Part shown: positions 20,348 to 46,669 of the stretch, piece by piece | Numbering within the stretch: the stretch's first letter is position 1 | Layout: every line of letters starts with the position of its first letter | Assembly (NCBI GenBank): GCA_903835555.1 | Contig: CAILNN010000420.1 | Location: 4,990-68,989 of the forward strand | DNA: 64,000 nt | From: an uncultured Verrucomicrobiota bacterium | GTDB taxonomy: Bacteria > Verrucomicrobiota > Verrucomicrobiia > Limisphaerales > UBA9464 | Direction of reading: 5' to 3' | Notes under the pieces: generated by a model | The model's input: the letters and a program-made list of their open reading frames with translations, nothing else | The model's database searches: none | Told to the model about the DNA's origin: nothing | Translations under genes and position numbers: made by a program

Positions 20348-20360
20348 GGGCGAGCCGGAT

Positions 20361-25103: not shown

Positions 25104-25251
25104 CAAAAAGATTGAAATTGAAAGTTGTCGGGGTGAATGCGGCCAAGGGCGGGTTTCGCCCCATCAGCTAGGAATGTTTTGCAACATTGAAACCAGGACT
25201 ATGGCGTGGAAGTGGTGTGGCCCCGTACTCGTTAAAACAACTGACTGCCGA

Positions 25252-26732: not shown

Positions 26733-26782
26733 AGGCTGGGTAAGATTTTGTTCTGGCAGCATCGTGGAGGTCTGCCCAATTG

Positions 26783-26808
26783 CGCCATAGGGTGAACCCC
26801 TTATGGCG
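26783..26808 (-). promoter_or_regulatory. Palindrome carrying stress-motif copy, upstream of dps
   Basis: Minus strand reads CGCCATAAGGGGTTCACCCTATGGCG (10-bp stem with one bulge). It contains GGGGTTCACCCTATGG (26800-26785), 52 nt before the dps ATG. Confidence 0.4.
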
Positions 26809-26931
26809 TGACCGGTCGCTCCAAGGTCACTTTCCGGCTGTGAAAAATCGGACCGGTTGGACAAACCTCAAGAGGTGTAGTTGTCCCGCGCCAGCAAGGC
26901 GGGCGCATTGAATCTACGAGGCAAAACCAAG

Positions 26932-28851
26932 ATGTATCGGTGGGCACTTGCCACGGCGGCCCTGGCCATCCCTCTTTTGGGACAAGGCCCGCCAGAGAAT
27001 CAAATGGGCACCAATCCGGTTCCTGCGGAGCACATCATTTTGCCAGCGGAAGTACCTGATCCCATTGAACCGTTTAATCGGGTGATGTGGTCCTTCAACA
27101 AGGGGTTGATGATGGACGTTATCAATCCCACCGCACGTGCCTATCGATTCGTCATTGTGAAACCGATTCGGCGTGTGATCCGCAACTTCAATCGGAACCT
27201 CCTTTACCCGGGAAGAGCGATCAACAACCTGCTCCAAGCCAGATGGAGCGGTGCGCGGGACGAATCCTACCGCTTTCTAGTGAACACCACGCTGGGGGTG
27301 GGCGGCATCTTTGACATGGCCACCCCGTATAAAATCCCGAAGTCCGATGCTGATTTTGGCCAAACCTTTGGCTACTGGGGTTGGAAGCCGACCTGTTTCA
27401 TCATGCTGCCTGTGTTTGGCCCCAGCAGTGAACGAGACACCGTGGGATTGGTTGCCGATACCGCAGCCAATCCACTTCTGTACGTATCACCCTATTCATT
27501 CAACAAGAATAATCCGCTGACCTATTTGGGTGCATATAGCTATTTTAGCTATGGTGCCATGTACAACGGTCTCTCGGACTCCGTCGCGGAGTATGTCCGG
27601 TTTAGTGAATCGGAAATGGACCCGTATGCCGAGATACGATTGGCGTGGACTTTCGCGCACAAAAATCAGACGACAGATATGCGGGTGATGGGCAGTCAGG
27701 ATCAGCCATCGTTGGACACCGTGAGATCGGCGTTGTTTACCTACCAGGACCCCGAGTTTCCCGTCCACGCCCATACGCGCTCCGTTGTGATTCCAACGAC
27801 CGGTCGCAGGCTCCCCTTCTCTTATTGGCTACAACGCGGGAAGGCCCCATTGGTTTATGTCCTGCCCGGACTTGGCGGACACCGACTCTCCCAAACAGCG
27901 GTTGCGTTGGCTGAATTGCTTTATGGGAAAGGATACTCGGTCGTTTGTGTCAGTAATCCATTCCATTCCGAATTCATGGAACGTGCTTCCTCGGCCGTCC
28001 TTCCGGGTTACCTACCGGTCGACGCCCATGATGTACATGTGGCTTTGAACGAGATTGATCGCCGTTTGACGGAATTGTATCCGGGACGAATTGGGCCGAA
28101 AGCCTTGCTAGGCTACTCGATGGGAGCGCTGGAAGCCCTTTTCATTGCAGCGGAACCAGCCACCAATCACCCGTCCTTACTCCGGTTTGATCGGTTCGTG
28201 GCCATCAGCACACCGGTCAGCCTGATGCATGGAATAGCCAAGCTGGACGAATTCTATCTGGCACCGCTTGAGTGGCCTGCCGTGGAGCGCTCAAAGAATT
28301 TAGAAAACACCTATTTAAAGGTGGCGGCATTGGTGAAGGAAGGACTCAACCCTCAAACGAATCTGCCGTTTAACTCGATCGAATCCCGTTTTCTCATCGG
28401 AATGACCTTTCGATCGATTTTACGAGACATCGTTTATAGCAGTCAACGCAGGGCTCCCCAACATGTTCTACGGCACTCCCTTCTGAATCTCAGCCGCGAA
28501 GATATCTATCGGGAGATCAGTCGATATTCCTTTCAGGATTACTTCACCGACTTTGCCTCGCCTCTCTATGAAGGATCGGGGGAATTAAAACTGAATTCGG
28601 GTACCCTGGCACGTGCGGGTGACTTACGAACTTACGAGGTCGGCCTCCGAGCGAATTCAAATATTCGGGTCCTATCAAATCACAACGATTTCCTACTGGA
28701 CTATAACGATATTGCCTGGTTGCAAGCGACTTTTTCAAATGAACAATTAACCATTTTCCCCGATGGAGGCCACTTGGGAAATCTATTCGTTCCCGAAGTT
28801 CAAAAGGCCATATTGGGGGCTTTGCCAACGCTTTTGGATCCAAAACCCTAA
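26932..28851 (+). CDS. MlaA/VacJ-family domain fused to a C-terminal alpha/beta hydrolase domain
   Basis: N-terminal half has EPFNR..W.FN, NFNRNL.YP, LVNTTLGVGGIFD and FGQTFGYWG (MlaA). C-terminal half has LPGLGGH, a GYSMG nucleophile elbow and a DGGHLG histidine motif. Confidence 0.7.
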   Translation: MYRWALATAALAIPLLGQGPPENQMGTNPVPAEHIILPAEVPDPIEPFNRVMWSFNKGLMMDVINPTARAYRFVIVKPIRRVIRNFNRNLLYPGRAINNLLQARWSGARDESYRFLVNTTLGVGGIFDMATPYKIPKSDADFGQTFGYWGWKPTCFIMLPVFGPSSERDTVGLVADTAANPLLYVSPYSFNKNNPLTYLGAYSYFSYGAMYNGLSDSVAEYVRFSESEMDPYAEIRLAWTFAHKNQTTDMRVMGSQDQPSLDTVRSALFTYQDPEFPVHAHTRSVVIPTTGRRLPFSYWLQRGKAPLVYVLPGLGGHRLSQTAVALAELLYGKGYSVVCVSNPFHSEFMERASSAVLPGYLPVDAHDVHVALNEIDRRLTELYPGRIGPKALLGYSMGALEALFIAAEPATNHPSLLRFDRFVAISTPVSLMHGIAKLDEFYLAPLEWPAVERSKNLENTYLKVAALVKEGLNPQTNLPFNSIESRFLIGMTFRSILRDIVYSSQRRAPQHVLRHSLLNLSREDIYREISRYSFQDYFTDFASPLYEGSGELKLNSGTLARAGDLRTYEVGLRANSNIRVLSNHNDFLLDYNDIAWLQATFSNEQLTIFPDGGHLGNLFVPEVQKAILGALPTLLDPKP

Positions 28852-28920
28852 CCCAGTTTTGCACTGCCACAAACGCGAAGCAATTGGGGCACGCCAAGAC
28901 GCAAAGGAAGAAGGGAGGTA

Positions 28921-28936
28921 GTAATTGACCCCATGG
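28921..28936 (+). promoter_or_regulatory. Stress-motif copy upstream of DUF2934 gene (weaker match)
   Basis: GTAATTGACCCCATGG, 15 nt before the annotated ATG. Confidence 0.25.
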
Positions 28937-28951
28937 CAGTAAAGGGCAGAA

Positions 28952-29224
28952 ATGGGCTACCCTTCAACAATGCAACGGAAGTTCTACTCAAAAAAAATAG
29001 CAACGCCGCCCGTGGACGCTGCTGGACGCCCGAGCGGGGGGGCGATTGAAGGGCAAGTGGATTTCTGGCCATCACCCGACGAAGTGGCGCGAAGAGCGTA
29101 CTTTACCTATGTAAACCAGGGGTCTCTGCCGGGACATGATGTGCAGCATTGGCTGGACGCGGAAGCGGAGTTAATTCAGGAGAGAGACAAGACCCGAACA
29201 CATGGTTTTCATAACCCGACTTAG
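28952..29224 (+). CDS. DUF2934-like small protein
   Basis: EVARRAYFTYVNQG..PGHDVQHWLDAEAEL matches the DUF2934 pattern. Confidence 0.55.
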   Translation: MGYPSTMQRKFYSKKIATPPVDAAGRPSGGAIEGQVDFWPSPDEVARRAYFTYVNQGSLPGHDVQHWLDAEAELIQERDKTRTHGFHNPT

Positions 29225-29498
29225 GGTCACTTGATTCCCTTTCGCTAAAAACCATTGGCTGGGAAGCCTTCGGCTTCAGCGAGAAACCGACAATTCTAGG
29301 GTACATTTTGAAAATACGCCCTAACCAAGTAGAACTAGTATGGGATAAAGCCCCCCCATTTGAAAGCAGGACGAGCTTTCGCCCGTCCCACCCCCCACCC
29401 CAAAATTCCTACTCGATTCCTCCGCCCGCCGCTGTAGACCTAACGGGCAGCGGATGGTCTCCTCTTGAAAAAAGATTGAATGATGCCCCGCAACTTTT

Positions 29499-29514
29499 CG
29501 ATGGGGTGTAACCC
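29499..29514 (-). promoter_or_regulatory. Orphan stress-motif copy (no ORF downstream)
   Basis: Minus strand reads GGGTTACACCCCATCG, a 15/16 match to the copy upstream of the BON gene. Confidence 0.3.
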
Positions 29515-29714
29515 CACCTCCGGGTGCATGCGGATGGCAGAAGCGGAATGCCAAAATGGGCTTGCGTCGATAAGATATCGGCTTCCTCCGAGGATTACAT
29601 CTAATTTTAGCGGCCTTGTACACCGAATGCCGTCGACTTACCTGTCGCAACCTTTTCTATTTCAACGTTGACTATGTTCACCGACAGGAGGACTGATGGG
29701 TTGAATCGGGATAG

Positions 29715-29730
29715 GGTGAATACCCCATGT
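29715..29730 (+). promoter_or_regulatory. Stress-motif copy upstream of the signalling operon
   Basis: GGTGAATACCCCATGT, 64 nt before the ATG at 29795. Confidence 0.3.
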
Positions 29731-29794
29731 CACGGGCGGCGGGGTTCAGTCAGTGTGTTTTAGGAGAGACGGAACGGCGAATCATTGCCCGACC

Positions 29795-30493
29795 ATGAAG
29801 CCAAAAGAAATTCGCTTGGCAAAGCAATACGCATCGGCCATGCGACGATATTTGGTCCCTGGCAATCTGGAAGATTTGCAACCCGCCCTTCGTTTGGGAC
29901 GGGCGGCAGTCGCGATTGGCCTAGAGACGCTGGACTTGGCGCGGATTCATGAGGAGACGCTCTTAAGCCTTGGATTGGCAAACGGACCGTCGCCGACTGT
30001 AAAGCAAGCGGAACGGTTCTTTACTGAGGCCATCACGCCGATCATCGAGAGTCATCGAACATCACGAGCCAGAAAACTTCAGCTCAAAAGCCACAGCGAT
30101 ACGCTTCGAAAGCGAACAATCGAACTGGCGACCGCAAACCGCAACCTGAGGCGGGGTATCATTCGGCGCAAGAGCATGGAGGCGGCACTTAAGAAGACCG
30201 GGGAACACTACGCGAATCTCCTCAAGGAGTCGTTGCGATTGCAGGAGGTATTGCGCCGGCTGACGCGACAAGTTCTGGCGGCGCAGGAAGATGAACGAAA
30301 AAAGATCAGTGCTGAATTGCAGAATCAAATCGCGCAAACACTCCTTGGGATCAATATCCGGCTCTATTCGCTAAAGAAAGAGGCAAAATTGAACTTAAGC
30401 GATCTTAAGAGTGAAATCTCCAGCACCCAAAGGCTTGTGGCAAAATCAGCACGGACGGTGCAGCGAGTGGCCCGGGAGGTTGGGGAACAATGA
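29795..30493 (+). CDS. Histidine-kinase paralog lacking the phospho-acceptor His and the ATPase domain (RsbU_N-like + coiled coil + degenerate HisKA_3)
   Basis: Collinear with residues 1-235 of the next gene. The H-box reads ISAELQNQIAQTL where the neighbour has ISRELHDVIAQTL. The ORF ends right after DHp helix 2. Confidence 0.6.
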   Translation: MKPKEIRLAKQYASAMRRYLVPGNLEDLQPALRLGRAAVAIGLETLDLARIHEETLLSLGLANGPSPTVKQAERFFTEAITPIIESHRTSRARKLQLKSHSDTLRKRTIELATANRNLRRGIIRRKSMEAALKKTGEHYANLLKESLRLQEVLRRLTRQVLAAQEDERKKISAELQNQIAQTLLGINIRLYSLKKEAKLNLSDLKSEISSTQRLVAKSARTVQRVAREVGEQ

Positions 30494-31689
30494 AGGCGAA
30501 ACTTGACACCTTTCACCGCCGATATCAGGCCGCCCTTCTTCATCATCTCAAGTTCGGGACCGAAGTAAGTCTGGAGACGGCGCGAAGCCTCGGTAGCGAC
30601 GCGATTGCCGCCGGTCTGCAAACGCTGGATTTGGTCAAAATACATGAACAAATAGTAACTGAGGTAGTTATTCCGGGGTCTACCGCAGCTCGACGCCGGA
30701 CATTGATTAAAGAGGCTGGGGCTTTTTTCGCAATCGCCATCACCCAAATTGAAAAGACCCATCGCAGCGCCCGCGAAGCCACGGCACATCTTGAAAAGAT
30801 CATCGAATCCCTCAGCCAACGAACAGCCGAACTTGCTGCCTCCAACATGGATCTCAATTTGGAGGTGGCCCAGCGGAAGGCTGCCGAGGAAGCCCTCAGG
30901 GATAGTGAGCGGCACTATCGCCATTTACTGAAAAAGTCAGACCATCTTCAACAGGAGTTAAGGCGGCTTTCGCGTCAGATTCTCTCGGCGCAGGAAAATG
31001 AACGGAAGGAAATCAGCCGCGAATTGCACGACGTGATCGCACAAACGTTAACGGGAATCAGCCTTCGCCTGTCCGCGCTTGCCAAAGATGCGGCTCGGAA
31101 TACCAAGGGGCTCGACAACAACATTGCCCAAACTCAGGCGATGGTGGTCAAATCAGTGGCTATCGTCCATCAATTCGCGCGCGAACTGCGCCCGGCGGTT
31201 CTCGACGACCTGGGTTTGATTCCGGCCTTGCACACCTTTTTAAAGGCATTTTCAGACCGGACGGGAATCAAAGCGCACTTGACTGCATTTGCCGGAGTTG
31301 AAAACCTGTCTCCAAGTCGGCGTACCGTATTGTTTCGGGTTGCCCAGGAGGCCCTGACCAACGTTGGTCGCCATGCCCATGCCCATCGGGTGGATGTCAC
31401 GATCGAGAATCGAGCGGATGGCATCCTGTTACGGATTAAGGACGACGGAAGATCCTTCAAGGTTGATCAAGTTTTGAATAGCAGGAGCAACAAGCGTCTC
31501 GGACTTCTTGGTATGCGGGAACGGCTGGAGATGGTGGGCGGTCGACTTACTATCGAGTCGAGTCCGGGGGCTGGAACAACGATTCAAGCTTTGGTCCCGC
31601 GACCAACGACGGGGGCTCGAGAAGTTCGGGCAAAGATTCCGATCGAGAGGACCAATGATACTGGCGCGACTCACAGTTTATTATCATGA
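30490..31689 (+). CDS. Sensor histidine kinase (RsbU_N-like domain, HisKA_3, HATPase_c)
   Basis: H-box ENERKEISRELHDVIAQTL, N-box EALTNVGRHA, G-boxes DDGRSF and GLLGMRERLEMVGG. ATGA overlaps on both sides. Confidence 0.85.
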   Translation: MKAKLDTFHRRYQAALLHHLKFGTEVSLETARSLGSDAIAAGLQTLDLVKIHEQIVTEVVIPGSTAARRRTLIKEAGAFFAIAITQIEKTHRSAREATAHLEKIIESLSQRTAELAASNMDLNLEVAQRKAAEEALRDSERHYRHLLKKSDHLQQELRRLSRQILSAQENERKEISRELHDVIAQTLTGISLRLSALAKDAARNTKGLDNNIAQTQAMVVKSVAIVHQFARELRPAVLDDLGLIPALHTFLKAFSDRTGIKAHLTAFAGVENLSPSRRTVLFRVAQEALTNVGRHAHAHRVDVTIENRADGILLRIKDDGRSFKVDQVLNSRSNKRLGLLGMRERLEMVGGRLTIESSPGAGTTIQALVPRPTTGAREVRAKIPIERTNDTGATHSLLS

Positions 31690-32369
31690 TACCAATTACC
31701 ATTCTGTTGGCCGAAGACCACACCATCGTGCGGGAAGGATTCCGCAACATGCTCAATGCGGAAATCGATATTCGGGTGGTGGGTGAGGCATCCAACGGTC
31801 GCCAAGCAGTGGCGCTGGCGAAAGATTTGCAGCCCGACGTTGTGCTGATGGATATCGCGATGCCGGTCCTCAATGGGCTGGAAGCAACCCGCCAAATCGT
31901 CGGAGCAATTCCCAAAGCGAAAGTATTGATTTTATCGGCTCATCACGATGACGCCTACGTGGAGTCGGCCATCGAGGCGGGGGCCTTTGGATTTCTGATC
32001 AAACAGGCGTCAGGGGCTGACGTTTGCATCGCGATTCGCGAGGCTCACAAAGGGACCCATCTGATGAGTCCTCTGGTGGCGAAGCGAAACGCTGAACTAA
32101 ACCGTTCGGCACCGGACCGTCGCGGTACTTTCAAAGCTCGGCGGCACAATCTGTCGGTCCGCGAGATGGAAGTGATTCAACTCATTGCCGAAGGAAAGGC
32201 CAATAAGGAGACAGCTTCAGAACTGGGGATCAGCATTAAGACGGTTGAGAAGCACCGACAAAACCTGATGACCAAGCTCAATATACACGACACGGCCGGG
32301 TTGACCAGATACGCCATCGGGGCGGGAATTATTGAAAGTAACGTCCAACTCACGATTGTGCCGGAGTAA
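31686..32369 (+). CDS. NarL/FixJ-family response regulator (REC + LuxR-type HTH)
   Basis: ILLAEDH, DVVLMDIAMP, and C-terminal LSVREMEVIQLIAEGKANKETASELGISIKTVEKHR. Confidence 0.9.
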   Translation: MIPITILLAEDHTIVREGFRNMLNAEIDIRVVGEASNGRQAVALAKDLQPDVVLMDIAMPVLNGLEATRQIVGAIPKAKVLILSAHHDDAYVESAIEAGAFGFLIKQASGADVCIAIREAHKGTHLMSPLVAKRNAELNRSAPDRRGTFKARRHNLSVREMEVIQLIAEGKANKETASELGISIKTVEKHRQNLMTKLNIHDTAGLTRYAIGAGIIESNVQLTIVPE

Positions 32370-32414
32370 AAAGCATGAAGTCAAGAGTCCTGAGCCTTCC
32401 GCGAGAGGACGACC

Positions 32415-35400
32415 TCACACGAGTGGAGGAGGTGGTGTAGGCCTAGCCAATAGGAGGGTCACTAGATGGTCCCGATGGTCATTTTTTAACGGGAGCATGA
32501 CCCCTGGAAGCACTTCACCGTCAACGGTCAAGACTCCGGCTTGGGCTGATGGATGATTCGGGAGCGAAATGTGAATGTGATAGGTTGATTCATGGAATCG
32601 GTAATGAAGGGTACATTGGTTCCAATCATCAGGTAGGTGCGGCGACAGGAACAATTGGTCTCCGACACGGTTCAGGCCCAGCAGAGTTTCGACAAGAAGC
32701 CGATACATCCATCCGGCTGAACCAGTGTACCACGTCCAACCGCCTCTTCCGATGTAGGGGGTCCGAGAATAGACGTCCGCGGCTACCACATACGGTTCCA
32801 CCTTATAGATCGCGGCTGACTTTGGGGTGAGGCTATGAAGGACAGGATTAATCAGTCCAAACAATTCCCAGGCCAGACTATTCTGGTCCAGAAGTGCGAA
32901 CGCCATCACAGACCAAATCGCCGCATGGGTATACTGACCTCCATTTTCGCGAACTCCCGGGATGTATCCCTTTATGTATCCCGGGTTCGAGGTGGATTTA
33001 TCAAAAGGCGGGTCGAACAATTGGATCAATCGATCGCCCCGTCTTACAAGCCGTCCATCCACCTGGGACATTGCGTGGCGGGCGCGGACAGGATCGGCGG
33101 CACCACTGATGACCGCCCAACTCTGGGGAATGGAATCGATCTGACATTCGGTATTCAGGTGAGAACCCAACGGTTCACCGTTATCAAAATAGGCGCGGCG
33201 GTACCAATCTCCGTCCCATCCCTGGGCCTCAATGCTTTTCTGGAGATTCGATGCGGTGGCAAGGCAGCGATCCGCAAATAGCGTGTCCAAGCGATGTCGA
33301 GCCAACCGCTCAAACTTGATTAGGACATCATAGAGGAAAAAAGCCAACCAGACACTTTCCCCGCGGCCTTCATTGCCTACGCGGTTCATACCGTCATTCC
33401 AATCGCCGCAACCCATCAGTGGCAAACCGTGGGTTCCGAATCGCGAACCGCGCTCGATGGCGCGTACGCCGTGTTGGTACAGCGTAATCGACTCCTCCGC
33501 AGGGTTCGGCTGGTCGTAGTACGATTCTTCCTCAGGTTTGACCAAGCGCGCCTCGAGAAGGCCGATCTTTTCATCCAAGACGGAATGGTCACCAACCGTT
33601 TCAACATACTGGCAAGTGACATAGGGCAGCCAAAGAAGGTCATCGGAGAAGTGGGTGCGCACGCCGCGGCCGGACGGTGGATGCCACCAGTGTTGGACAT
33701 CCCCTTCCCTGAACTGGTGGGCTGCGGCCCGGAGGATGTGCTCGCGTGTTAGAGTCGGCGCGGCGTGGACCAGCGCCATGACATCCTGCAATTGATCGCG
33801 GAACCCGTAAGCTCCTCCCGATTGGTAAAACCCCGTTCGGCCCCAGAGACGGCAACTGAGCGTTTGATAGAGGAGCCATCCATTGGCCAGGAAGTTTGCA
33901 GCGGGATCGGGGGTTTCGATTTGAATGGTGCCAAGAATACGTTGCCAATGTGCGCGAACAGAGGCAAGTACGCCGCTGGTAGAATCGAACCGTCGATAGC
34001 GTTGAATCAAGGTGGACACGTCCGGCAGGCCGCATCCGACGCCCAGTCTAAACGTGGTCTCACGCTCTTGCGCGTCGGCCAGTTCGAGCGCAACTTGCAC
34101 CGCACCGCAGGGGTCCAACCCGGCACCGACGCGTCCCGAAAGAGCCGAACGTCGAAGGGCCGCCGGGTTTCCAAGATTTCCATTGCCACCAATAAACTCC
34201 CGACGATCACCCGTGCTTGTCCGGTGTGGGTGGCTGACATCGACAAACGCAATCCGGTTTGGAAACTCAGAATTGTAATGATTATAGGCAAGGAGTGCTC
34301 CTGTCTTGAAGTCCACCTCGGTTTGCACGTGAAGAAAAGTCTTGGTTCGCAACTCGCCCAGAACCCATTCCCAATATCCGGTGATAGAAACCCGTCGGGT
34401 TCGCCCCGAATCATTCCGAAGCTTCAACTGGTAAAACTTCACCGGTGCATCCATAGCGACAAAGATGGTTAATTCGGAGTGAATGCCATTCTCACTATGT
34501 TCAAAGATGCTGTAACCGAATCCGTGACGGATAAGATACGGAGTCGCACCTCGCACCGGAAGAGGGGTGGGCGACCAGAATTGACCGGTTTCCTCATCCC
34601 GAAGATAGAGGGCTTCGCCAGGTGTGTCCATGACGGGATCATTACTCCAGGGCGTGAGCCTGAATTCGTGAGAATTTTCGAGCCACGTGTAGCCTGAACC
34701 ACTTTCAGAGACGATCGTTCCAAAAGTAGGGTTGGCGATGACGTTGACCCAGGGGGCAGGCGTCGTCTGGCCGGATTCGAGGAAGACGATGTATTCCTGT
34801 CCATCTTCCGAAAAGCCGCCCAGTCCATTGGGGAATCGTCGTTTTGGCAAGACCAGGGGGTGGGACGTTTCGACACCTCCAATCCGAACCGGACTGAATG
34901 CCGGGACGAGCGGCACCAAGGCCAAATGCGGTTCAACTTGGTCCGCCAATGTGCCACGTTCATCATCGACAAAAACCCGCGCCACTGCCTGAAGGAGGGT
35001 ACGATCTTCGTGCGACATTTGTTCCAAGTGTCTGACAAAAATGCCACCTGGTTTATCCAACAGTTGCGCTCCGAGGCCCGAGGAGACGAGACTGATGATT
35101 TGGTCGTGCAGAGACTGGCGGTAGACCGAAATATCTTCATTAAGAATGACCAAGTCCGTAATGAGACCCTTCATCCGCCAGTAAGCGTGAGCTTTGATGA
35201 GTTGCCGGACGATCTCGATTTTATTGGCATCACTGATTCGAAGCAGCAGAATTGGCAGGTCACCCGAAATGCCATAACTCCACAAGGCGTTTTGACCCTT
35301 GCGATTGCCCCGAAGTATGCAGGCATTCGCCCGCCTCACCGGGTCGGCATAGATGAGGGCGCTGGCGAGCCGACTAAAAAGCTGGGCGTCGCCCTCGGTA

Positions 35401-41174: not shown

Positions 41175-41243
41175 GCCTTTCCTCCGCAGGTATTGGCTGG
41201 CTCACATAGACAACCCCGTTTTGAAAACCCATCCCAGTCGAAT

Positions 41244-41393
41244 TCAAGTTCCGCGTCGCCCCCCGATGAGGTTGACAAGAACCATGACAATAGCGACCAC
41301 CAGAAGAATGTGGATGAATCCTCCGATAGTGTAACTGGTGACCAATCCGAGGACCCAAAGGATCAGGAGCACGACAGCAATGGTATAGAGCAT
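41244..41393 (-). CDS. lmo0937-family small membrane protein (49 aa, below the ORF-track cutoff)
   Basis: Hand translation gives MLYTIAVVLLILWVLGLVTSYTIGGFIHILLVVAIVMVLVNLIGGRRGT, matching the conserved lmo0937-type sequence. Confidence 0.7.
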   Translation of the reverse strand: MLYTIAVVLLILWVLGLVTSYTIGGFIHILLVVAIVMVLVNLIGGRRGT

Positions 41394-41467
41394 AAGACAG
41401 TATAATTCAAATGACTACCGTGACACGAGACCGGCATGCCGAATGCCGGTTCGTTGTCCCGATCCGG

Positions 41468-42244
41468 TTACTTCGCCGATGCGGCGGAAATCTCGACGAC
41501 CAATTGGTTGTTGACCTGGCGGACGCCGTTGATGTCCCCGACCAGTTTGCCAACGAGGCTTTTTTCCGCGTCATTGGAAGCACGACCTGTCAAGGTAACC
41601 ACACCTTCGACAGTGGAAACCTTGATCTTCGAAGACCGGGTAGAACGGTGCGCGAGGAGGGCGGATTTCACCTGAGCGGTAATCGAGGCATCGTCAATCT
41701 TTTCGTCCATGCTTTCCTCGGGCTTCACCGGCGCAACTGACACCGTCAGTTCATTCTTTACGTCGCGAACGCCTTCGACGTCCTTGGCGTATTCTCCGGT
41801 CAATTCCTTTTGGGCCAAACTAGAAACTTCCCCATGCAGGGTAACGATGCCGTCCGAAACAGACACATCCGTACCGGTGGAGCTGACATGCCGATGGAAC
41901 AAAAGCGTCGATTTCACCCGGAGAGCCAGCCAAGTGTCCGAATGTTCAGGCTGGGGATCTCCTTTAATTTTGAGCTGATTGTCGACCCGTAGGACCCCGG
42001 GTAAGCCTTCAACGGTGTCCTCAGCCAGTTTACGGTGCTCGATCACTTCAACCGTTCCGGTTAATGTCACAACCCCTTCTTTGGATTCGGTGTGAATGGA
42101 ATCGCCGACGAGGTAGGTCTTGAAAACATACGACTTCCTGGCGGCCGACTCAATGCGGTCGTCGGTCTCAGATGCGGTCAAAATCAATGGCGCGATAAAC
42201 AGGGCACCAGCCACCCATGGGGCGAGGGAGAGAGTCTTTTTCAT
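41468..42244 (-). CDS. Periplasmic BON-domain protein (OsmY-like, three BON repeats)
   Basis: Signal peptide followed by three ~65-aa repeats, each ending G.VTL.G.V......A......GV..V.N.L.V. Confidence 0.8.
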   Translation of the reverse strand: MKKTLSLAPWVAGALFIAPLILTASETDDRIESAARKSYVFKTYLVGDSIHTESKEGVVTLTGTVEVIEHRKLAEDTVEGLPGVLRVDNQLKIKGDPQPEHSDTWLALRVKSTLLFHRHVSSTGTDVSVSDGIVTLHGEVSSLAQKELTGEYAKDVEGVRDVKNELTVSVAPVKPEESMDEKIDDASITAQVKSALLAHRSTRSSKIKVSTVEGVVTLTGRASNDAEKSLVGKLVGDINGVRQVNNQLVVEISAASAK

Positions 42245-42313
42245 AATCTTATTGCAGCGAACACCACGTGGTGTTTGCAGCGGAAGAATCGTAAGTGATG
42301 TCTTGATTTCAAT

Positions 42314-42329
42314 CCATGGGGTGTAACCC
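42314..42329 (-). promoter_or_regulatory. Stress-motif copy upstream of BON/OsmY-like gene
   Basis: Minus strand reads GGGTTACACCCCATGG, about 70 nt before the ATG at 42244. Confidence 0.4.
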
Positions 42330-42409
42330 GACTGAATCGAATACCAAACCGCTTCGTGGCGATCGCCGGTCGGAAACCCGCGCATGCCCATGGGAAACCT
42401 GGCCTATCT

Positions 42410-43957
42410 TCAGGGGGCCGACTTGATTATTGGGCGCTCAAAATCAATGAAACCACGCTCGACATCGATATGAAGCAATTTGACCTGAACTCTGTCCCCC
42501 ACATCCAGCCCTTGAAAACCAATATCCACCCGCCCCTCAGTCGGTGGCTGGAAGATACGTACCCACGTACCCTTATTCGATGCACCCGTGACGATGGCAT
42601 CAAAGGATTCGCCAATTCTGCCGGATAAAAGGAGCGCAGCGGCTGACTTTCGCAGATGCCGTTCAACTTTTGTTGCATCGTCCTCCCGGTCGGTGCAACG
42701 TTTCGCAAGTTCGCCGAGTTCGGAAATGGTATAGGGCAATGTCGCACCCGAAATCGCCGCCTTTAAGAGGCGTTGGGTGAGGAGGTCGGGAAAGCGTCGG
42801 TTTGGCGCGGTCGAATGAGTGTAGTCCCGGACCGCCAGAGCGAAATGACCGGGCGGTACGCCACCAGGAAGGTCCAGATCGTACTCACCACGACCAATCA
42901 ACTTGACTACAGCCAAAGAGAGATCGGGGAATTGGTCAGGAGCAGCCTTGCGACGCCGTTCCAGGAAAGCTTCGAGTGCCACAACATCCGGCTTTTCCGG
43001 CAGTCGCTCATTGAATCCGCCCGCCAGCGCGACGATGCGCTCCCATCTCTCAGGCGATCTTAACACTCGACGGATGGATGGGAATTTCCGGGATGCCAGG
43101 TAGGTTGCGGACGCTCCGTTGGCGGCAACCATGAATTCCTCAATCAACTGAGTCGCCCTATTCTTCCAATCTGGCTCCAGTCCGGCAATGGAATCCCCCT
43201 TGAAAATCGCCCGTGGCTCAATTGTTTCTAGACTGAGTGCACCCCGCGTTTGTCTGAGGCCGACAAGACGTTGAGCAACTCCATCCTGAAGCCGAAGATT
43301 GGTGGCAAGTCCCGGTACTTTTGGAATCTGATCTGGAATGGAGCTTTCGCCAGCAAGCCATGCACCCAGGCTTCGGTAGGCCAGTTTCGCCCGGTTACGG
43401 ACCAGAGCGCGGTAGTGTTCTGAGTAAGCAAGCGATCCATCGGCCTCGAATACCATATCCGTAACGACGGCAACGCGATCCTGGTCCTCATTAAGCGACG
43501 TCAAATTCGTCGACAATGCGGTCGGCAACATCGGAAAGACCAGGGACGGCGTATAAACGGAAGTCGTGTTACGAGCGGCGTGCCCATCAATCGCGGAGTC
43601 CCTCTGGACAAGTGCATCGACGTCGGCAATAGCAACGAGGACCCTCATACGACCGTTTTCTAGCGATTCGGCGACAGTGATTTGGTCAAGATCGAGAGAA
43701 TCGTCGTTGTCGATGGACGCCCAAGGCCGGTCCCGCAGGTCCTTCAAATCGATGGTTGCCACAGCCGCTTCTTGAATCGCCAACAATTGTTGCAAAGCAT
43801 TTGGCGGGAAATCGGGCTCAAGTCCGCGCTCGATCATGGCTCGATGGGCTATCCCAGCGAGGATTTCTCGGTCGTTTGCTGGACCTTGAGAATATTTGCC
43901 GATTTTACCTAGTGTTTTCTCGGCGTTAGGAACGGTAGCGGTCATGAGGTTTGTCAT
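42410..43957 (-). CDS. RNB-domain exoribonuclease (RNase II/R family) with C-terminal S1-like domain
   Basis: SIDNDDSLDLDQ, the RNB catalytic-region pattern, HFALAVRDYTHSTAPNRRFPDL, and a C-terminal S1-like beta segment. Confidence 0.75.
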   Translation of the reverse strand: MTNLMTATVPNAEKTLGKIGKYSQGPANDREILAGIAHRAMIERGLEPDFPPNALQQLLAIQEAAVATIDLKDLRDRPWASIDNDDSLDLDQITVAESLENGRMRVLVAIADVDALVQRDSAIDGHAARNTTSVYTPSLVFPMLPTALSTNLTSLNEDQDRVAVVTDMVFEADGSLAYSEHYRALVRNRAKLAYRSLGAWLAGESSIPDQIPKVPGLATNLRLQDGVAQRLVGLRQTRGALSLETIEPRAIFKGDSIAGLEPDWKNRATQLIEEFMVAANGASATYLASRKFPSIRRVLRSPERWERIVALAGGFNERLPEKPDVVALEAFLERRRKAAPDQFPDLSLAVVKLIGRGEYDLDLPGGVPPGHFALAVRDYTHSTAPNRRFPDLLTQRLLKAAISGATLPYTISELGELAKRCTDREDDATKVERHLRKSAAALLLSGRIGESFDAIVTGASNKGTWVRIFQPPTEGRVDIGFQGLDVGDRVQVKLLHIDVERGFIDFERPIIKSAP

Positions 43958-44043
43958 TTAACGTTGCCGGTGTTCGAGGCATCTATCGGTAAGCAATGAC
44001 ATCCCGACCCATGCCCGCTCACGCACCTGGAACATCACCGCTG

Positions 44044-44685
44044 TCAACTGTTTGTCTCGCAGATCAGGTTTGGGTACTCATGATGATCCAGAGTCTCTAG
44101 TTTTGTCTGATTCAGGATAGCCTTGGCGTGGCAGGTGTCATCAATTGTGCCGTGGGCGACGAGAACGAACTTACCCGTCTTGAGGGCGGTCTCGTATTGC
44201 AGAATGCTGTTCTTGGGAATGCCGATGCTATAGAGAGCCGCTCCCGCAGCACTTAAGCCACCGATGACCACAGCACCCTCCAAAGCGCCGACGATCCAAC
44301 CGACCAATGGCCCGGCCACTAGCAATGGACCTAGGCCGGGAATCCAAAATAATGCTGACCCGAACAAAAGGCCCCACAATCCACCCCAGAAAGCCCCTGA
44401 TTTCCCCCACGCCATCATCCGGTCGCCGATATTATAATAGCCAATGACATGTTCATCGGTGTGATAGTCACGGCCTATGATAGACAATTTCTTCATGTCA
44501 AAGCCGGACTTTTGAAGCTCCTTTATACCTCGTTCAGCTGCCGGATGGGTTGCATACACAGCCACAACGGAGTTGCACTTGCCGGTGGGCTTTGGGGAAC
44601 TGTCACTCGAAACATGCCCTACTTCGGGTAGGACATTCGTTCTTGGTTCCGAGCGAATTTGCTCGGGTGATTTTGCAATATTCAT
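44044..44685 (-). CDS. General-stress membrane protein (YflT/GSP17M-like N-domain plus glycine-zipper TM region)
   Basis: VAVYATHPAAERGIKELQKSGFDMKKLSIIG followed by a Gly-rich TM segment. Lies 11 nt after the entericidin gene. Confidence 0.5.
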   Translation of the reverse strand: MNIAKSPEQIRSEPRTNVLPEVGHVSSDSSPKPTGKCNSVVAVYATHPAAERGIKELQKSGFDMKKLSIIGRDYHTDEHVIGYYNIGDRMMAWGKSGAFWGGLWGLLFGSALFWIPGLGPLLVAGPLVGWIVGALEGAVVIGGLSAAGAALYSIGIPKNSILQYETALKTGKFVLVAHGTIDDTCHAKAILNQTKLETLDHHEYPNLICETNS

Positions 44686-44696
44686 AACGTTATAAA

Positions 44697-44837
44697 TTAT
44701 TTGGTACTGTCCTGAATACCCTCGCCTGCTTTTTCGACGTCCTTGCCGAATCCGCGGGTGGTATTGCATCCGGTGCCGATCAGTACGACCAGACAGGCGA
44801 GAAGAAGGAGGCGTGCAGTTCGATTTAGAGATATCAT
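44697..44837 (-). CDS. Entericidin EcnA/B-family lipoprotein (46 aa)
   Basis: LLLLACLVVLIGTGCNTTRGFGKDVEKAGEGI: a lipobox Cys followed by the NT.RG.G.D motif of entericidins. Confidence 0.65.
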   Translation of the reverse strand: MISLNRTARLLLLACLVVLIGTGCNTTRGFGKDVEKAGEGIQDSTK

Positions 44838-44871
44838 GCCAGTAATACTTGGGCTTGCGGGGAACTTACAA

Positions 44872-44887
44872 CAATAGGGTAATACCC
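44872..44887 (-). promoter_or_regulatory. Stress-motif copy upstream of entericidin gene
   Basis: Minus strand reads GGGTATTACCCTATTG, 34 nt before the ATG at 44837. Confidence 0.3.
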
Positions 44888-44915
44888 GACCTTCAGCTTT
44901 CCTCAAGAGGCCGGT

Positions 44916-45230
44916 TTATCGCTTCCGGGAATGGAATTGCTGCCAAAGAGCGGTAACCAGACGAACGCCGGAGGTGAGTGTCTCGCCCCACGATGAATGC
45001 GTGTGGTGTCGGGATTCTTTCCGAGGGTGATACCCATCGAAAGCCGTCATGAGAGAGATGGCACAGTCGGAGACGCCCTTCCATGATCGGGCGTGACGGG
45101 CGATGTCATTACAACCGGATGAAATCGTTTTCAGGTCCTGAATTAATCTGACTCGGTTGAGATTGCTTTCAGCAATGAGCAACTGCTTGCGGGTAGCGAG
45201 GGAATTTATCGAAGTGTTTTTTCCAAACAT
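44916..45230 (-). CDS. YqjK-like small protein
   Basis: Sits after YqjD/YqjE-like genes and has an RKQLLIAESNLNR segment. Weak call. Confidence 0.4.
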   Translation of the reverse strand: MFGKNTSINSLATRKQLLIAESNLNRVRLIQDLKTISSGCNDIARHARSWKGVSDCAISLMTAFDGYHPRKESRHHTHSSWGETLTSGVRLVTALWQQFHSRKR

Positions 45231-45595
45231 TCACGGTCCTTTCGCAGTTGTTCGAGAGTCGCCGATGGATTTCTCCCACCACGAATTCCCGAACGCAATC
45301 TCCAGTAGAGACCAACGGCGGTGATGGCGTAGACTCCAGCCAAAGTCAAGAGGGTCAGACCCGGGCAGTTTGGCCAGCAGAGCAGGCAGATGGCAGCACT
45401 GAGAGCAATGGCAGCCAAGAGGCCAAAGGCCGCGATTCCGAGGCCCAAAAGGAGTTGGCTCAGGAGAAGCACCCGCTCCTCCTGAACCTCGACCATCCAC
45501 AATTCCAGGCGATTCTCGCCCATGGCGAGAAGGGCTTTCCCAAAATCAAGGACGGATGCCTTCAGTTGACTCCAACCGATGGTTCCGGGTTCCAT
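45206..45595 (-). CDS. YqjE-like (DUF1469, holin-X-like) membrane protein
   Basis: N-terminal amphipathic R.EL...E..EE segment followed by two TM helices. Typical partner of DUF883 genes. Confidence 0.55.
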   Translation of the reverse strand: MEPGTIGWSQLKASVLDFGKALLAMGENRLELWMVEVQEERVLLLSQLLLGLGIAAFGLLAAIALSAAICLLCWPNCPGLTLLTLAGVYAITAVGLYWRLRSGIRGGRNPSATLEQLRKDRECLEKTLR

Positions 45596-45602
45596 GGGGG
45601 GC

Positions 45603-45899
45603 CTACTCGCGATTCCGACGGGTAAGAAGGAATCCGATCAAGGTCCCTACGCCAAAGGCGACGCCCATAGCCGTGTAGGGATGCTGACGAACCGTTTGAT
45701 CGGCTTCCTTGGCCCGCGCCAGCGCTCCCGCACCGACATTTTCGCAGGCTTGTTCGGCCTGGTGGATTGCCGCCGAAAGACGCTGACGGGCCTGGACCAC
45801 TTTGTCCCCAAGGACGTCGGCGGTGGCGGCGATGAGGGCCTTGGCCTCGTCGGTCAGGTCGGATTTCTGGGATGATGGGGGTGTTAACAGAGTTGTCAT
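45603..45899 (-). CDS. YqjD/ElaB-family (DUF883) tail-anchored stress protein
   Basis: Helical N-terminal region followed by HPYTAMGVAFGVGTLIGFLLTRR, the characteristic C-terminal anchor. Confidence 0.7.
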   Translation of the reverse strand: MTTLLTPPSSQKSDLTDEAKALIAATADVLGDKVVQARQRLSAAIHQAEQACENVGAGALARAKEADQTVRQHPYTAMGVAFGVGTLIGFLLTRRNRE

Positions 45900-45935
45900 A
45901 TTTTTCCTGTTGGTTGTGAACGAGAACCGCTTCGC

Positions 45936-46550
45936 TCAACGGGTTGCCGCAGCAGCGGCGTGAGGCGCGGGAGAAATCGGCGGAACGGTCGCGGGTTTGG
46001 TGGAATGAACCGCCGGAGATTGCTTCACTTCGGCTGCGACGGTTGAAGAAGCCGTCTTTTCTGAATGCGCCAGCGCTTCGGGGTTGCAGGTGGAACGAGC
46101 CAAGGTGATCAGGAATTCATTGGACGCCTTCTCCTCGGCTAGAATTTCGGCCAGGATTCCGGCACCTTTTTTGTTTCCCAGAATATTCGCCCATTCATGA
46201 AGACCACCGTAGGAGGCTATTTCATAATGTTCGATCTTTTGCACCATGTTGACCAAGGCTGCATTCAAGACAGGGGAGCCTTTGAAGTGAGTGATCAACT
46301 CGTGCGCTTCCTTGACCAAACCAGAAGCCACTTCACAGGTTCTGCCATGAGGTTTTGCTGCAACCGACTCGAAGACATGGTCCAACCTTCGGACATGAAC
46401 TTCGCTTTCCTTCAAGTTGGTGTGCAATGCCTTCTTCAATTTCTCGCAGGTTGTCGCCTCAGCGAGCTTGGGCAACGCGTGCACAATCTGCTTTTCGGCG
46501 TCATAGATGTCGGACAGTTCGTGCAGGAAAAGGGTTTGAAGTGTTTTCAT
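45936..46550 (-). CDS. YciE/YciF-family ferritin-like protein (DUF892)
   Basis: LFLHELSDIYDAEKQIVHALPKL and EHYEIASYG motifs. Confidence 0.8.
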   Translation of the reverse strand: MKTLQTLFLHELSDIYDAEKQIVHALPKLAEATTCEKLKKALHTNLKESEVHVRRLDHVFESVAAKPHGRTCEVASGLVKEAHELITHFKGSPVLNAALVNMVQKIEHYEIASYGGLHEWANILGNKKGAGILAEILAEEKASNEFLITLARSTCNPEALAHSEKTASSTVAAEVKQSPAVHSTKPATVPPISPAPHAAAAATR

Positions 46551-46653
46551 AATGGATATGGGTTCGATCCCGCGAATCGGGCTGAGAAGTTGAATACTTC
46601 GCTGTCCCTAACTTGGGGTCGTTGATAACTTTAGATTTGGCATTTGGACCAAT

Positions 46654-46669
46654 CCATGGGGTGTTTCCC
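46654..46669 (-). promoter_or_regulatory. Stress-motif copy upstream of yciF-like gene
   Basis: Minus strand reads GGGAAACACCCCATGG, about 100 nt before the ATG at 46550. Confidence 0.4.

What the first reader, a model, noticed from the sequence alone, without database searches (positions are those of the whole stretch)
26785..46669. Shared 16-nt upstream motif links dps, osmY-like, entericidin, yciF-like, DUF2934 and the kinase/regulator operon into a candidate stress regulon
**Seven copies, each read on the coding strand of the downstream gene:**
- GGGTTACACCCCATGG (42329-42314), about 70 nt before the BON gene.
- GGGAAACACCCCATGG (46669-46654), about 100 nt before yciF-like.
- GGGGTTCACCCTATGG (26800-26785), 52 nt before dps.
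- GGGTATTACCCTATTG (44887-44872), 34 nt before entericidin.
- GTAATTGACCCCATGG (28921-28936), before DUF2934.
- GGTGAATACCCCATGT (29715-29730), 64 nt before the signalling operon.
- GGGTTACACCCCATCG (29514-29499), an orphan copy.

**Pattern.**
- The first two copies share 19 of 20 consecutive positions when the flanking ATTG is included.
- The orientation is consistent relative to the downstream gene in every case.

**Candidate regulator.**
- The core (TACCCCAT / TACCCTAT / CACCCCAT) resembles, but does not exactly match, the NarL heptamer TACYYMT.
- A NarL-family regulator is encoded in the middle of the cluster, with a motif copy in front of its own operon.
Basis: partly seen in the sequence, partly recalled or inferred. 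Interest (0 to 1): 0.7.

Follow-up and report, generated by a model that had tools for sequence, protein, structure and literature searches.

The report
Verrucomicrobial stress-regulon activator box
The repeated 16-base motif is real. It is most likely the binding site of the two-component response regulator encoded in the cluster, built into the promoters of general stress genes, and it is conserved across the phylum Verrucomicrobiota, whose stress-response control I found described nowhere.

Summary
**Observation: confirmed.**
- All seven copies are at the stated coordinates, and every strong copy is intergenic in a window that is 91% coding.
- A weight matrix gives 8 hits in the window against 0.8 in shuffles.

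**What it is.**
- The motif is half of a composite promoter. Among 218 unique copies from the window and 90 Verrucomicrobiota loci, a TAnnnT hexamer lies 20-21 nt downstream (111 copies; about 1 at other offsets).
- That places the 16-mer at about -48 to -33. Its dyad, T(A/G)GGGT-N3-ACCC(C/T)A or the perfect palindrome ATGGGGTG-WW-CACCCCAT, is centred near -43, the position of a class II activator.
- Start codons peak 6-7 nt after the hexamer, so many targets look leaderless.

**Likely regulator.**
- Motif density is highest around orthologues of the window's NarL/FixJ-family regulator (31686-32369): 229 hits against 7.4 expected in 565 kb.
- A copy sits about 70 nt before the kinase-regulator operon in 15 of 23 evaluable loci.

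**Targets** include BON/OsmY, Dps, YciF, CsbD, DUF883, DUF3309, DUF2934, entericidin/YflT and stand-alone receiver proteins.

**Rejected:** the ECF sigma factor, and σB, σ54 and NarL-heptamer readings.

**Status:** a new member of a known kind. DNA binding by the regulator is inferred, not shown.

The parts
42314..42329 (-). Activator box (class A) GGGTTACACCCCATGG of the BON/OsmY-like gene promoter
   Evidence: 25.2 bits, intergenic.
42288..42293 (-). Predicted -10 hexamer TACGAT, 20 nt after the box. The BON gene runs 42244-41468 (3 BON domains).
   Evidence: Pfam.
46654..46669 (-). Activator box GGGAAACACCCCATGG of the yciF (DUF892) operon promoter
   Evidence: 22.9 bits. The orthologous position carries the box in L015 and L005.
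46628..46633 (-). Predicted -10 hexamer TAAAGT. The likely operon is yciF 46550-45936, a 125-aa gene, a Holin-X-like gene (45595-45206) and a 104-aa gene (45230-44916).
   Evidence: The same gene order occurs in L015.
26785..26800 (-). Activator box GGGGTTCACCCTATGG of the dps promoter. It lies inside a near-palindrome, CGCCATAGGGTGAACCCCTTATGGCG (26783-26808).
   Evidence: 21.1 bits. dps is also a motif target in L023.
26758..26763 (-). Predicted -10 hexamer GATGCT (offset 21). dps starts at ATG 26732 and is followed by DUF5069 (26244-25696) and a 113-aa ORF.
26791..26806 (+). Tentative reverse reading of the dps box (GGTGAACCCCTTATGG, 11.3 bits) facing the MlaA + alpha/beta-hydrolase gene 26881-28851; CACTTT lies at offset 21.
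   Evidence: The MlaA-hydrolase orthologue has a strong box in L130.
44872..44887 (-). Activator box GGGTATTACCCTATTG of the entericidin-YflT promoter
   Evidence: 19.3 bits.
44845..44850 (-). Predicted -10 hexamer AAGTAT. The entericidin ATG at 44837 is 7 nt downstream, so the mRNA is predicted to be leaderless. The YflT-domain gene follows (ORF 44769-44044).
28921..28936 (+). Weak box GTAATTGACCCCATGG before the DUF2934 gene
   Evidence: 7.6 bits. DUF2934 is a target in L002; L008 also encodes a DUF2934 homologue.
28958..28963 (+). Predicted -10 hexamer TACCCT. An in-frame ATG at 28970 lies 6 nt downstream, so the DUF2934 gene is likely leaderless and runs 28970-29224.
29711..29728 (+). Palindromic box (class B) ATAGGGTGAATACCCCAT before the kinase-regulator operon: the predicted autoregulatory site
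   Evidence: The equivalent site lies about 70 nt before the first operon gene in 15 of 23 loci and directly before the operon in L007.
29751..29756 (+). Predicted -10 hexamer CAGTGT (offset 20) of the operon promoter. Orthologues carry GAT(A/G)nT here.
29795..32369 (+). Operon of three genes. First, an RsbU_N-like + HisKA_3 protein without an ATPase domain (29795-30493). Second, an RsbU_N + HisKA_3 + HATPase kinase (30490-31689). Third, a REC + GerE (NarL/FixJ family) response regulator (31686-32369), the proposed box-binding activator.
29499..29514 (-). 'Orphan' strong box GGGTTACACCCCATCG with CAATCT (29478-29473) at offset 20. No ORF of 30 aa or more starts downstream of the predicted start site; a structured 244-nt non-coding stretch follows.

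Best explanation
**What it is.** The 16-mer is the operator of a transcription activator, embedded in sigma-70-type promoters of a general-stress regulon.

**Proposed mechanism.**
- The box is a dyad. Class A is (T)AGGGTTA-CACCCCAT and class B is the perfect palindrome ATGGGGTG-WW-CACCCCAT.
- It sits at about -48 to -33, centred near -43. Its 3' T-n-G falls where the -35 hexamer would be, 17 nt from a TAnnnT -10 box.
- The phosphorylated NarL/FixJ-family regulator encoded at 31686-32369 most likely binds it as a dimer and recruits RNA polymerase from this class II position.
- This would switch on dps, the BON/OsmY-like gene, entericidin-YflT, the yciF operon, DUF2934 and its own kinase-regulator operon (positive autoregulation).
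- About a third to a half of targets across genomes look leaderless.
- Signal input comes through HisKA_3 kinases whose sensor parts differ between lineages: RsbU_N here; PAS, KaiC-KaiB or CheB/CheR-PAS elsewhere.

**Shown here:** motif enrichment, conservation across the phylum, fixed spacing to the -10 box, the start-codon peak, the link to regulator loci, and the recurrent site before the regulator's own operon.

**Inferred:** that this regulator is the binding protein, that it activates rather than represses, and the transcription start positions.
For: **Enrichment**
- Matrix hits at 13 bits or more: window 8 against 0.8 in shuffles; Verrucomicrobiota yciF loci 25 against 3.6; regulator loci 229 against 7.4 (114 at 20 bits or more against 0).
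- Non-Verrucomicrobiota loci show none: 11 against 10.
- In the window every hit at 13 bits or more is intergenic although 91% is coding.

**Promoter geometry**
- TAnnnT lies at offset 20 or 21 in 73 + 38 of 218 unique sites, against about 1 at other offsets. For class A, 99 of 104 have nAnnnT at offsets 19-21.
- ORF starts peak 32-34 nt after the box, that is 6-7 nt after the hexamer, which independently marks the start site.

**Dimeric factor**
- There are 45 palindromic sites, and 22 of them have a -10 box on one side only. Palindromy is therefore not explained by two divergent promoters.

**Link to the regulator**
- In L007 the order is box, kinase-regulator operon, box, csbD-yciF, box.
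- The box lies about 70 nt before the first operon gene in 15 of 23 evaluable loci.
- A box lies just after the regulator's stop codon in many loci.
- In my ORF clustering of these loci no other recognisable DNA-binding protein recurred.

**The regulator itself**
- It has REC + GerE domains, with Asp56 and Lys106 aligned to the NarL phospho-acceptor residues. Its closest solved relatives are VraR, NarL and DevR.

**Targets**
- They are classic general-stress genes.
Against: **No experimental data**
- Nothing here measures binding, transcription start sites or expression.

**Sampling bias**
- The regulator loci were fetched using the regulator, so its presence there is by construction. It could be only a member of a clustered regulon whose true factor is encoded elsewhere.

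**Irregularities in the site**
- The two classes differ by 1 bp in half-site spacing.
- The left arm of class A is conserved in its own right.
- Both are unusual for one rigid dimer and may mean a second factor or a second binding mode.

**Gaps in the autoregulation evidence**
- 8 of 23 evaluable operons showed no hit at 13 bits or more, though my operon-start estimates were crude.

**Activation not shown**
- A site overlapping -35 could also repress.
Confidence: 0.68

Rival explanations
1. The box is bound by a different transcription factor encoded elsewhere in the genome. The kinase-regulator operon is then just one more member of the stress regulon.
For: - Motif-bearing yciF loci such as L002, L004-L006, L015 and L017 have no regulator gene nearby, so the factor acts in trans.
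- The regulator loci were selected by the regulator itself.
- Two spacing classes could reflect two factors.
Against: - Motif density is about 6 times higher per kb around the regulator than around yciF.
- In my ORF clustering of 80 loci no other recognisable DNA-binding protein recurred.
- From general knowledge, an 18-bp palindrome with G-rich and C-rich arms around an A/T centre is typical of GerE-type dimers, and self-regulation is typical of two-component systems.
Confidence: 0.17
2. The 16-mer is the recognition element of an alternative sigma factor, such as the ECF sigma at 19688-20347 or a sigma-B-like or RpoS-like factor, and not an activator site.
For: - Orientation is consistent, and the spacing to the downstream hexamer is fixed to within a base or two.
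- From general knowledge, the gene content resembles the sigma-S, sigma-B and EcfG regulons.
- GGGTAT-like starts resemble the sigma-B -10 element.
Against: - The conserved block lies 22 nt or more upstream of the -10 hexamer. From general knowledge, that is beyond the 16-19 nt reach of sigma region 4.
- The -10 element is TAnnnT, the type read by housekeeping and related sigma factors. It is not CGT-like (ECF) or GGGTAT.
- No conserved element lies 12-17 nt upstream of the box.
- Perfect palindromes occur at one-directional promoters.
- The ECF sigma gene is the last gene of a string of aldolase, acetate kinase, hydrolase and SDR genes, with no box facing it.
Confidence: 0.07
3. The regulator binds the box but acts as a repressor that occludes the -35 region. 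The genes would then be derepressed under stress.
For: The box overlaps the position of the -35 hexamer.
Against: - The -35 position holds only T-n-G, a poor sigma-70 -35 element. From general knowledge, that is typical of activator-dependent promoters.
- Repressor sites rarely keep spacing to the -10 box this tightly across hundreds of promoters.
- Positive feedback on a two-component operon is the common pattern.
Confidence: 0.08

Closest known systems
DosR/DevR dormancy regulon of Mycobacterium tuberculosis (NarL/LuxR-family response regulator; box TTSGGGACTWWAGTCCCSAA, as quoted in PMC2275270)
   Same: - Both regulators are of the NarL/FixJ family. DevR is among the closest solved structures (E 1.9e-25).
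- Both boxes have a G-rich arm, a WW centre and a C-rich arm, and the G-triplets sit at the same offsets from the dyad centre.
- From general knowledge, DosR also has its promoter-proximal site overlapping -35, regulates itself and controls a few dozen stress and dormancy genes.
   Different: - The half-site sequence differs: GGGGTG here, GGGACT in DosR.
- This system has a second, 1-bp-shorter asymmetric site class.
- The phylum and the kinase sensor domains differ: RsbU_N, PAS or KaiBC here, GAF in DosS/DosT.
- The targets are OsmY, Dps and YciF-type genes.
- The regulator scores below the curated cut-off of every NCBIfam equivalog model.
NarL operators (heptamers TACYYMT arranged 7-2-7)
   Same: Same regulator family. 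The C-rich core TACCCCA/TACCCTA looks like the heptamer.
   Different: - No window copy matches TACYYMT exactly.
- In the 7-2-7 arrangement the C-rich half comes first (TACYYMT-NN-AKRRGTA). Here the G-rich half comes first.
General stress regulons driven by alternative sigma factors (sigma-S in E. coli, sigma-B in Bacillus, sigma-EcfG in Alphaproteobacteria)
   Same: The gene content overlaps: osmY/BON, dps, yciF, ecnB, csbD/yjbJ, elaB/yqjD (DUF883) and yflT (comparison from general knowledge).
   Different: The promoters here keep a housekeeping-type -10 box and carry an activator box. No sigma-specific -35 or -10 element is present.
Histidine kinases with an RsbU N-terminal domain linked to stressosome genes (RsbR, RsbS, RsbT) in some Proteobacteria (PMC12143880, citing Heinz et al. 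2022)
   Same: The window kinase has RsbU_N + HisKA_3 + HATPase. RsbU_N scores 28.2 bits against a cut-off of 25.5.
   Different: - No RsbR, RsbS or RsbT genes occur in the 64-kb window.
- The output here is a defined stress regulon.
- Orthologous regulators pair with other sensor types.

Membership tests
NarL/FixJ (LuxR-type) response regulators: the proposed regulator, 31686-32369 | N-terminal receiver domain plus C-terminal GerE/LuxR helix-turn-helix | tested here: met
   Pfam Response_reg 94.8 bits and GerE 66.7 bits. Full-length alignment to VraR, NarL and DevR.
NarL/FixJ (LuxR-type) response regulators: the proposed regulator, 31686-32369 | Phospho-acceptor Asp and conserved Lys of the receiver | tested here: met
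   VVLMDIAMP aligns with NarL LILLDLNMP (Asp), and GFLIK with GYLLK (Lys).
NarL/FixJ (LuxR-type) response regulators: the proposed regulator, 31686-32369 | Adjacent HisKA_3-type (NarX/DesK-class) kinase | tested here: met
   30490-31689: HisKA_3 55.3 bits and HATPase_c 51.7 bits.
NarL/FixJ (LuxR-type) response regulators: the proposed regulator, 31686-32369 | Equivalence to a named, characterised regulator (NarL, UvrY/GacA, UhpA, MctR and others) | tested here: not met
   All NCBIfam equivalog scores are far below their cut-offs; the best is MctR at 181 bits against 300. Database names are generic.
NarL-type operator | Heptamer TACYYMT, high-affinity 7-2-7 inverted arrangement with the C-rich half first | tested here: not met
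   The copies read (C/T)ACCC(C/T)AT, none matches TACYYMT, and the G-rich arm is first.
Class II activator-dependent sigma-70-type promoter | -10 hexamer with A at -11 and T at -7, at a fixed distance from the activator site | tested here: met
   TAnnnT at offset 20 or 21 in 111 of 218 sites, and nAnnnT at offset 20 in 120. Five of the seven window copies have nAnnnT at offset 20 or 21, three of them TAnnnT.
Class II activator-dependent sigma-70-type promoter | Activator site centred near -41.5 to -43, overlapping -35 | tested here: inconclusive
   A centre near -43 follows from the spacing if the start site is about 7 nt after the hexamer. The start-codon peak 6-7 nt after the hexamer supports this, but no start sites were measured.
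Class II activator-dependent sigma-70-type promoter | Transcription depends on the bound activator | not testable with these tools
   Needs reporter assays, in vitro transcription or mutant RNA-seq.
ECF sigma-factor promoter | -35 GGAAC-like and -10 CGT-like elements about 16-17 nt apart; the sigma gene usually preceded by its own promoter | tested here: not met
   No such conserved pair in the alignments. The ECF gene at 19688-20383 ends a metabolic gene string with no box facing it.
Sigma-B / SigF-type promoter | GTTT -35 element 12-17 nt upstream of a GGGTAT -10 element, with the start site about 7 nt after it | tested here: not met
   Information content is 0.2 bits or less at all positions 7-45 nt upstream of the box. 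The strongest conservation and the -10-like hexamer lie downstream.
Sigma-54 promoter | GG and GC dinucleotides separated by 10 nt (TGGCAC-N5-TTGC) | tested here: not met
   The position 12 nt after G1G2 is AT and never GC, and a separate TAnnnT follows.
Stressosome-controlled RsbU_N kinase module | RsbU N-terminal domain on the kinase | tested here: met
   28.2 bits against a cut-off of 25.5 for 30490-31689. Only 19.8 bits for the first gene.
Stressosome-controlled RsbU_N kinase module | Linked rsbR, rsbS and rsbT genes | tested here: not met
   None among the window genes scanned with Pfam. The rest of the genome could not be searched.

The most novel reading that the evidence does not exclude
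In Verrucomicrobiota the general stress response may be run by one highly conserved, self-activating NarL-type two-component regulator, and not by a dedicated alternative sigma factor as in Proteobacteria (sigma-S, EcfG) and Firmicutes (sigma-B). That regulator would pool signals from interchangeable sensor modules (RsbU_N, PAS, KaiC-KaiB) and switch on largely leaderless stress genes from a class II box.
Probability: 0.45. Interest if true: 0.72.

Novelty: new member of a known kind. Interest (0 to 1): 0.6.

Why it matters
**The gap**
- Verrucomicrobiota are abundant in soil, peat, freshwater and the gut.
- I found no description of how they control their general stress response (literature searches).

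**What this finding supplies**
- A sequence-level handle: a box of about 20 bp plus a fixed -10 spacing. With it the regulon can be read directly from any genome or metagenome-assembled genome of the phylum.
- A named candidate master regulator and its kinases.
- A testable suggestion that this phylum uses a two-component activator where other phyla use an alternative sigma factor.

**Further openings**
- The predicted leaderless starts would help gene-start annotation in the phylum.
- The linkage to KaiC-KaiB would help the study of non-cyanobacterial Kai systems.

Tried and rejected
**Alternative readings of the motif**
- Sigma-B-type reading (GGGTAT as the -10 element): rejected. There is no GTTT upstream, and the conserved -10 box lies 20 nt downstream.
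- ECF promoter, or the ECF sigma at 19688 as regulator: rejected.
- Sigma-54 GG/GC spacing: rejected by inspection of the alignments.
- RNA hairpin in the leader (GGGU...ACCC): rejected. The box lies upstream of the predicted start site, and the sequence is conserved without compensatory change.
- Repeat or mobile element: rejected, given the strict position before genes and the fixed spacing.
- NarL heptamer: does not match.

**Dead ends**
- Hit at 25151-25166 (+): wrong geometry, probably chance.
- RNA downstream of the orphan promoter: no Rfam family and no relatives in the 160 loci, only a stable fold. Left open.
- Literature searches for the motif, for a Verrucomicrobiota stress regulon and for the regulator found nothing relevant.
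- One search call failed on syntax.
- My crude ORF calling picked antisense ORFs of the regulator gene. That clustering serves only to show that no other recognisable DNA-binding protein recurred.

Full report
**1. Observation**

All seven copies are at the stated coordinates and strands with the stated sequences.
- The 16-mer with up to 3 mismatches occurs 4 times against 0.58 expected. No shuffle out of 100 reached 4.
- GGGNNNNACCCYAT occurs exactly 5 times, always between genes.
- A weight matrix gives 8 window hits at 13 bits or more against 0.8 in shuffles, and 5 at 16 bits or more against 0.
- The window is 91% coding, yet every hit at 13 bits or more is intergenic.
- The quoted distances to start codons are right.
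- One slip: the first two copies share 18 of 20 positions, not 19.

**2. Genes in the region**

Pfam and NCBIfam scans give the following.

| Coordinates | Strand | Product |
|---|---|---|
| 26202-26732 | - | Dps, followed by a DUF5069 gene |
| 26881-28851 | + | MlaA + alpha/beta-hydrolase fusion |
| 28970-29224 | + | DUF2934 |
| 29795-30493 | + | RsbU_N-like + HisKA_3 protein, no ATPase domain |
| 30490-31689 | + | RsbU_N + HisKA_3 + HATPase kinase |
| 31686-32369 | + | REC + GerE response regulator |
| 32415-41174 | - | 2919-aa ORF, not analysed |
| 41468-42244 | - | Protein with three BON domains (OsmY-like) |
| 42410-43957 | - | RNase II |
| 44044-44769 | - | YflT-domain protein |
| 44697-44837 | - | Entericidin |
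| 44916-46550 | - | yciF (DUF892), a 125-aa gene, a Holin-X-like gene and a 104-aa gene |

- The ECF sigma gene (19688-20383) is the last gene of a string of aldolase, acetate kinase, hydrolase and SDR genes.
- No rsbR, rsbS or rsbT genes occur anywhere in the window.

**3. Organism and conservation**

- The closest relatives of the YciF protein are Verrucomicrobiota MAGs, up to 62% identical.
- Orthologues of the regulator carry only generic names and come from Verrucomicrobiales or Verrucomicrobiota.
- The same box lies before yciF orthologues in L015 (an identical 16-mer) and L005, with a one-C-shorter variant in L011 and L053.
- Matrix hits at 16 bits or more are almost confined to the Verrucomicrobiota loci.
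- Against shuffles, Verrucomicrobiota yciF loci give 25 against 3.6. Non-Verrucomicrobiota loci (Bacteroidota, Acidobacteriota, Pseudomonas and others, 0.96 Mb) give 11 against 10.

**4. The box is part of a promoter**

- Aligning 30 copies showed a TAnnnT hexamer exactly 20 (±1) nt after the 16-mer in 17 of them. The background was 0.45 per three-offset window.
- With 218 unique copies, TAnnnT falls at offsets 20 and 21 in 73 and 38 copies, against about 1 elsewhere. nAnnnT falls at offset 20 in 120 copies.
- This places the 16-mer at about -48 to -33.
- Its last bases, T14-n-G16(-C), occupy the -35 hexamer position with a 17-nt spacer.
- No conserved element lies further upstream.
- Independently, the first long ORF starts 32-34 nt after the box in 50 of 211 cases, that is 6-7 nt after the hexamer and exactly where transcription should start. 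This supports the -10 assignment and predicts many leaderless mRNAs.
- In the window, entericidin (ATG 44837) and DUF2934 (ATG 28970, in frame and 18 nt inside the longest ORF) fit this pattern.

**5. The box is a dyad**

Two classes exist.
- Class A: (cg)GTA GGGTTACACCCCATgG c. This is T(A/G)GGGT-N3-ACCC(C/T)A, an 8-1-8 arrangement with a weaker left arm. Of 104 such sites, 99 have nAnnnT at offsets 19-21.
- Class B: the perfect 18-bp palindrome ATGGGGTG-WW-CACCCCAT, an 8-2-8 arrangement.
- Of 45 palindromic sites, 22 have a -10 box on one side only and 16 on both. Palindromy is therefore a property of the bound factor and not of overlapping divergent promoters. That argues for a dimeric protein and against a sigma-factor element.
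- The dyad centre falls near -43, the class II activator position.

**6. Which protein?**

- In L007 the order is box, kinase-regulator operon (48% and 61% identical to the window proteins), box, csbD-yciF, box.
- In L008 and L023 a PAS-HisKA_3 kinase, 50% identical in the kinase core, lies just upstream of box-driven genes.
- I fetched 80 metagenomic loci holding 64-73% identical orthologues of the regulator. They contain 229 matrix hits in 565 kb against 7.4 expected, with 114 at 20 bits or more against 0.
- That is about 0.41 hits per kb, against 0.064 per kb around yciF.
- Recurrent positions are just after the regulator's stop codon and about 70 nt before the first gene of the kinase-regulator operon. 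The second position holds in 15 of 23 loci where the operon start could be estimated. The typical sequence there is GGTGTTCACCCCATAT, N20, GAT(A/G)nT.
- The window copy at 29711-29728 is the equivalent site.
- In my ORF clustering of these loci no other recognisable DNA-binding protein recurred.
- The regulator is a phosphorylatable NarL/FixJ-family member, with Asp56 and Lys106 aligned to NarL. Its closest solved relatives are VraR, NarL and DevR. No NCBIfam equivalog model reaches its cut-off.
- Caveat: these loci were selected through the regulator, so its presence is by construction. The argument rests on motif density, the fixed autoregulatory site and the type of operator.

**7. Regulon content across genomes**

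The first ORFs after boxes cluster as follows.
- Stand-alone receiver proteins: 21 + 10
- BON/OsmY-like proteins: 17, including the window gene
- First gene of the kinase-regulator operon: 14
- Also CsbD, YciF, Dps, DUF883 (ElaB/YqjD-like), DUF3309, DUF2934, ice-binding-like PEP-CTERM proteins, the MlaA-hydrolase fusion, a B12/radical-SAM enzyme and several small membrane proteins

From general knowledge, this is the gene set seen in sigma-S, sigma-B and EcfG regulons.

Sensor modules in front of the regulator vary between lineages: RsbU_N kinases, PAS kinases, KaiC-KaiB-KaiB plus a kinase (about 10 loci, for example L102) and CheB/CheR-PAS proteins.

**8. Comparison with known systems**

- The nearest analogue in design is the DosR/DevR regulon. 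It has the same regulator family and the same box layout: G-rich arm, WW centre, C-rich arm (TTSGGGACTWWAGTCCCSAA, quoted in PMC2275270). The G-triplets sit at the same offsets from the centre.
- From general knowledge, DosR also has a proximal site overlapping -35 and regulates itself.
- The half-site sequence, sensors, phylum and targets differ.
- Kinases with an RsbU N-terminal domain are known next to stressosome genes in some Proteobacteria (PMC12143880). No stressosome genes are in this window.
- I found no paper describing this motif or a Verrucomicrobiota general stress regulator.

**9. Verdict**

- The finding is a phylum-wide, previously undescribed regulon.
- Its operator, promoter geometry and likely regulator can be stated from sequence alone.
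- Binding, activation and start sites remain inferred.
- In kind it is a new member of a familiar class, the regulon of a NarL-family two-component activator.
- Its interest lies in supplying the missing general-stress regulator for a major phylum, and in the leaderless and KaiBC-linked features.

Noticed in passing
window 3445-3517 (+): Rfam group II intron domain hit (RF00029, 54 bits, E 8e-08). It stands alone in the gap between a hydrolase gene and an aminotransferase gene, with no reverse-transcriptase ORF beside it.
   Followed up: no
window 29225-29514 (-): A strong 'orphan' box (23.7 bits) with CAATCT at the right offset has no ORF of 30 aa or more starting downstream of the predicted start site. 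The 244-nt downstream stretch folds unusually stably (z = -3.3). It has no Rfam match and no relatives in the 160 loci. It may be a box-driven small RNA.
   Followed up: partly
L102 3559-8678; about 10 of the 80 regulator loci: KaiC-KaiB-KaiB genes sit directly upstream of the PAS-HisKA_3 kinase and the regulator, with the box in front of kaiC. This suggests a Kai-type input into the same regulon.
   Followed up: partly
window 29795-30493 (+), and the first operon gene in 14 or more loci: A conserved truncated kinase: an RsbU_N-like N-terminus plus the HisKA_3 dimerisation/phosphotransfer domain, with no ATPase domain. It is encoded ahead of the full kinase, and its role is unknown.
   Followed up: partly
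window 44835-44850 and 28958-28972; 218 sites in the loci: Start codons sit 6-7 nt after the predicted -10 hexamer in about a quarter to a third of box-driven genes. This implies leaderless mRNAs and, for DUF2934, a start codon 18 nt inside the longest ORF.
   Followed up: yes
L087 8884/8899, L085 2295/2314, L115 1741/1756, L147 6867/6882, L127 12424/12439: Tandem box copies 15-19 nt apart on the same strand. They may be distal plus proximal sites at some promoters.
   Followed up: no
window 26881-28851 (+); L130 5728, L087 10873-12984: An unusual MlaA lipoprotein + alpha/beta-hydrolase fusion recurs near the regulator and carries a strong box in L130. In the window only a weak reverse reading of the dps box faces it.
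   Followed up: partly
window 32415-41174 (-): A 2919-aa ORF lies directly downstream of, and convergent with, the regulator gene. It was not analysed.
   Followed up: no
L011 about 9911-9927 and L053 5795-5810: A variant box with one C fewer (GGTGTTC(C/A)ACCCATTG) lies before yciF in two other Verrucomicrobiota lineages. It may be a lineage-specific change in the operator.
   Followed up: no
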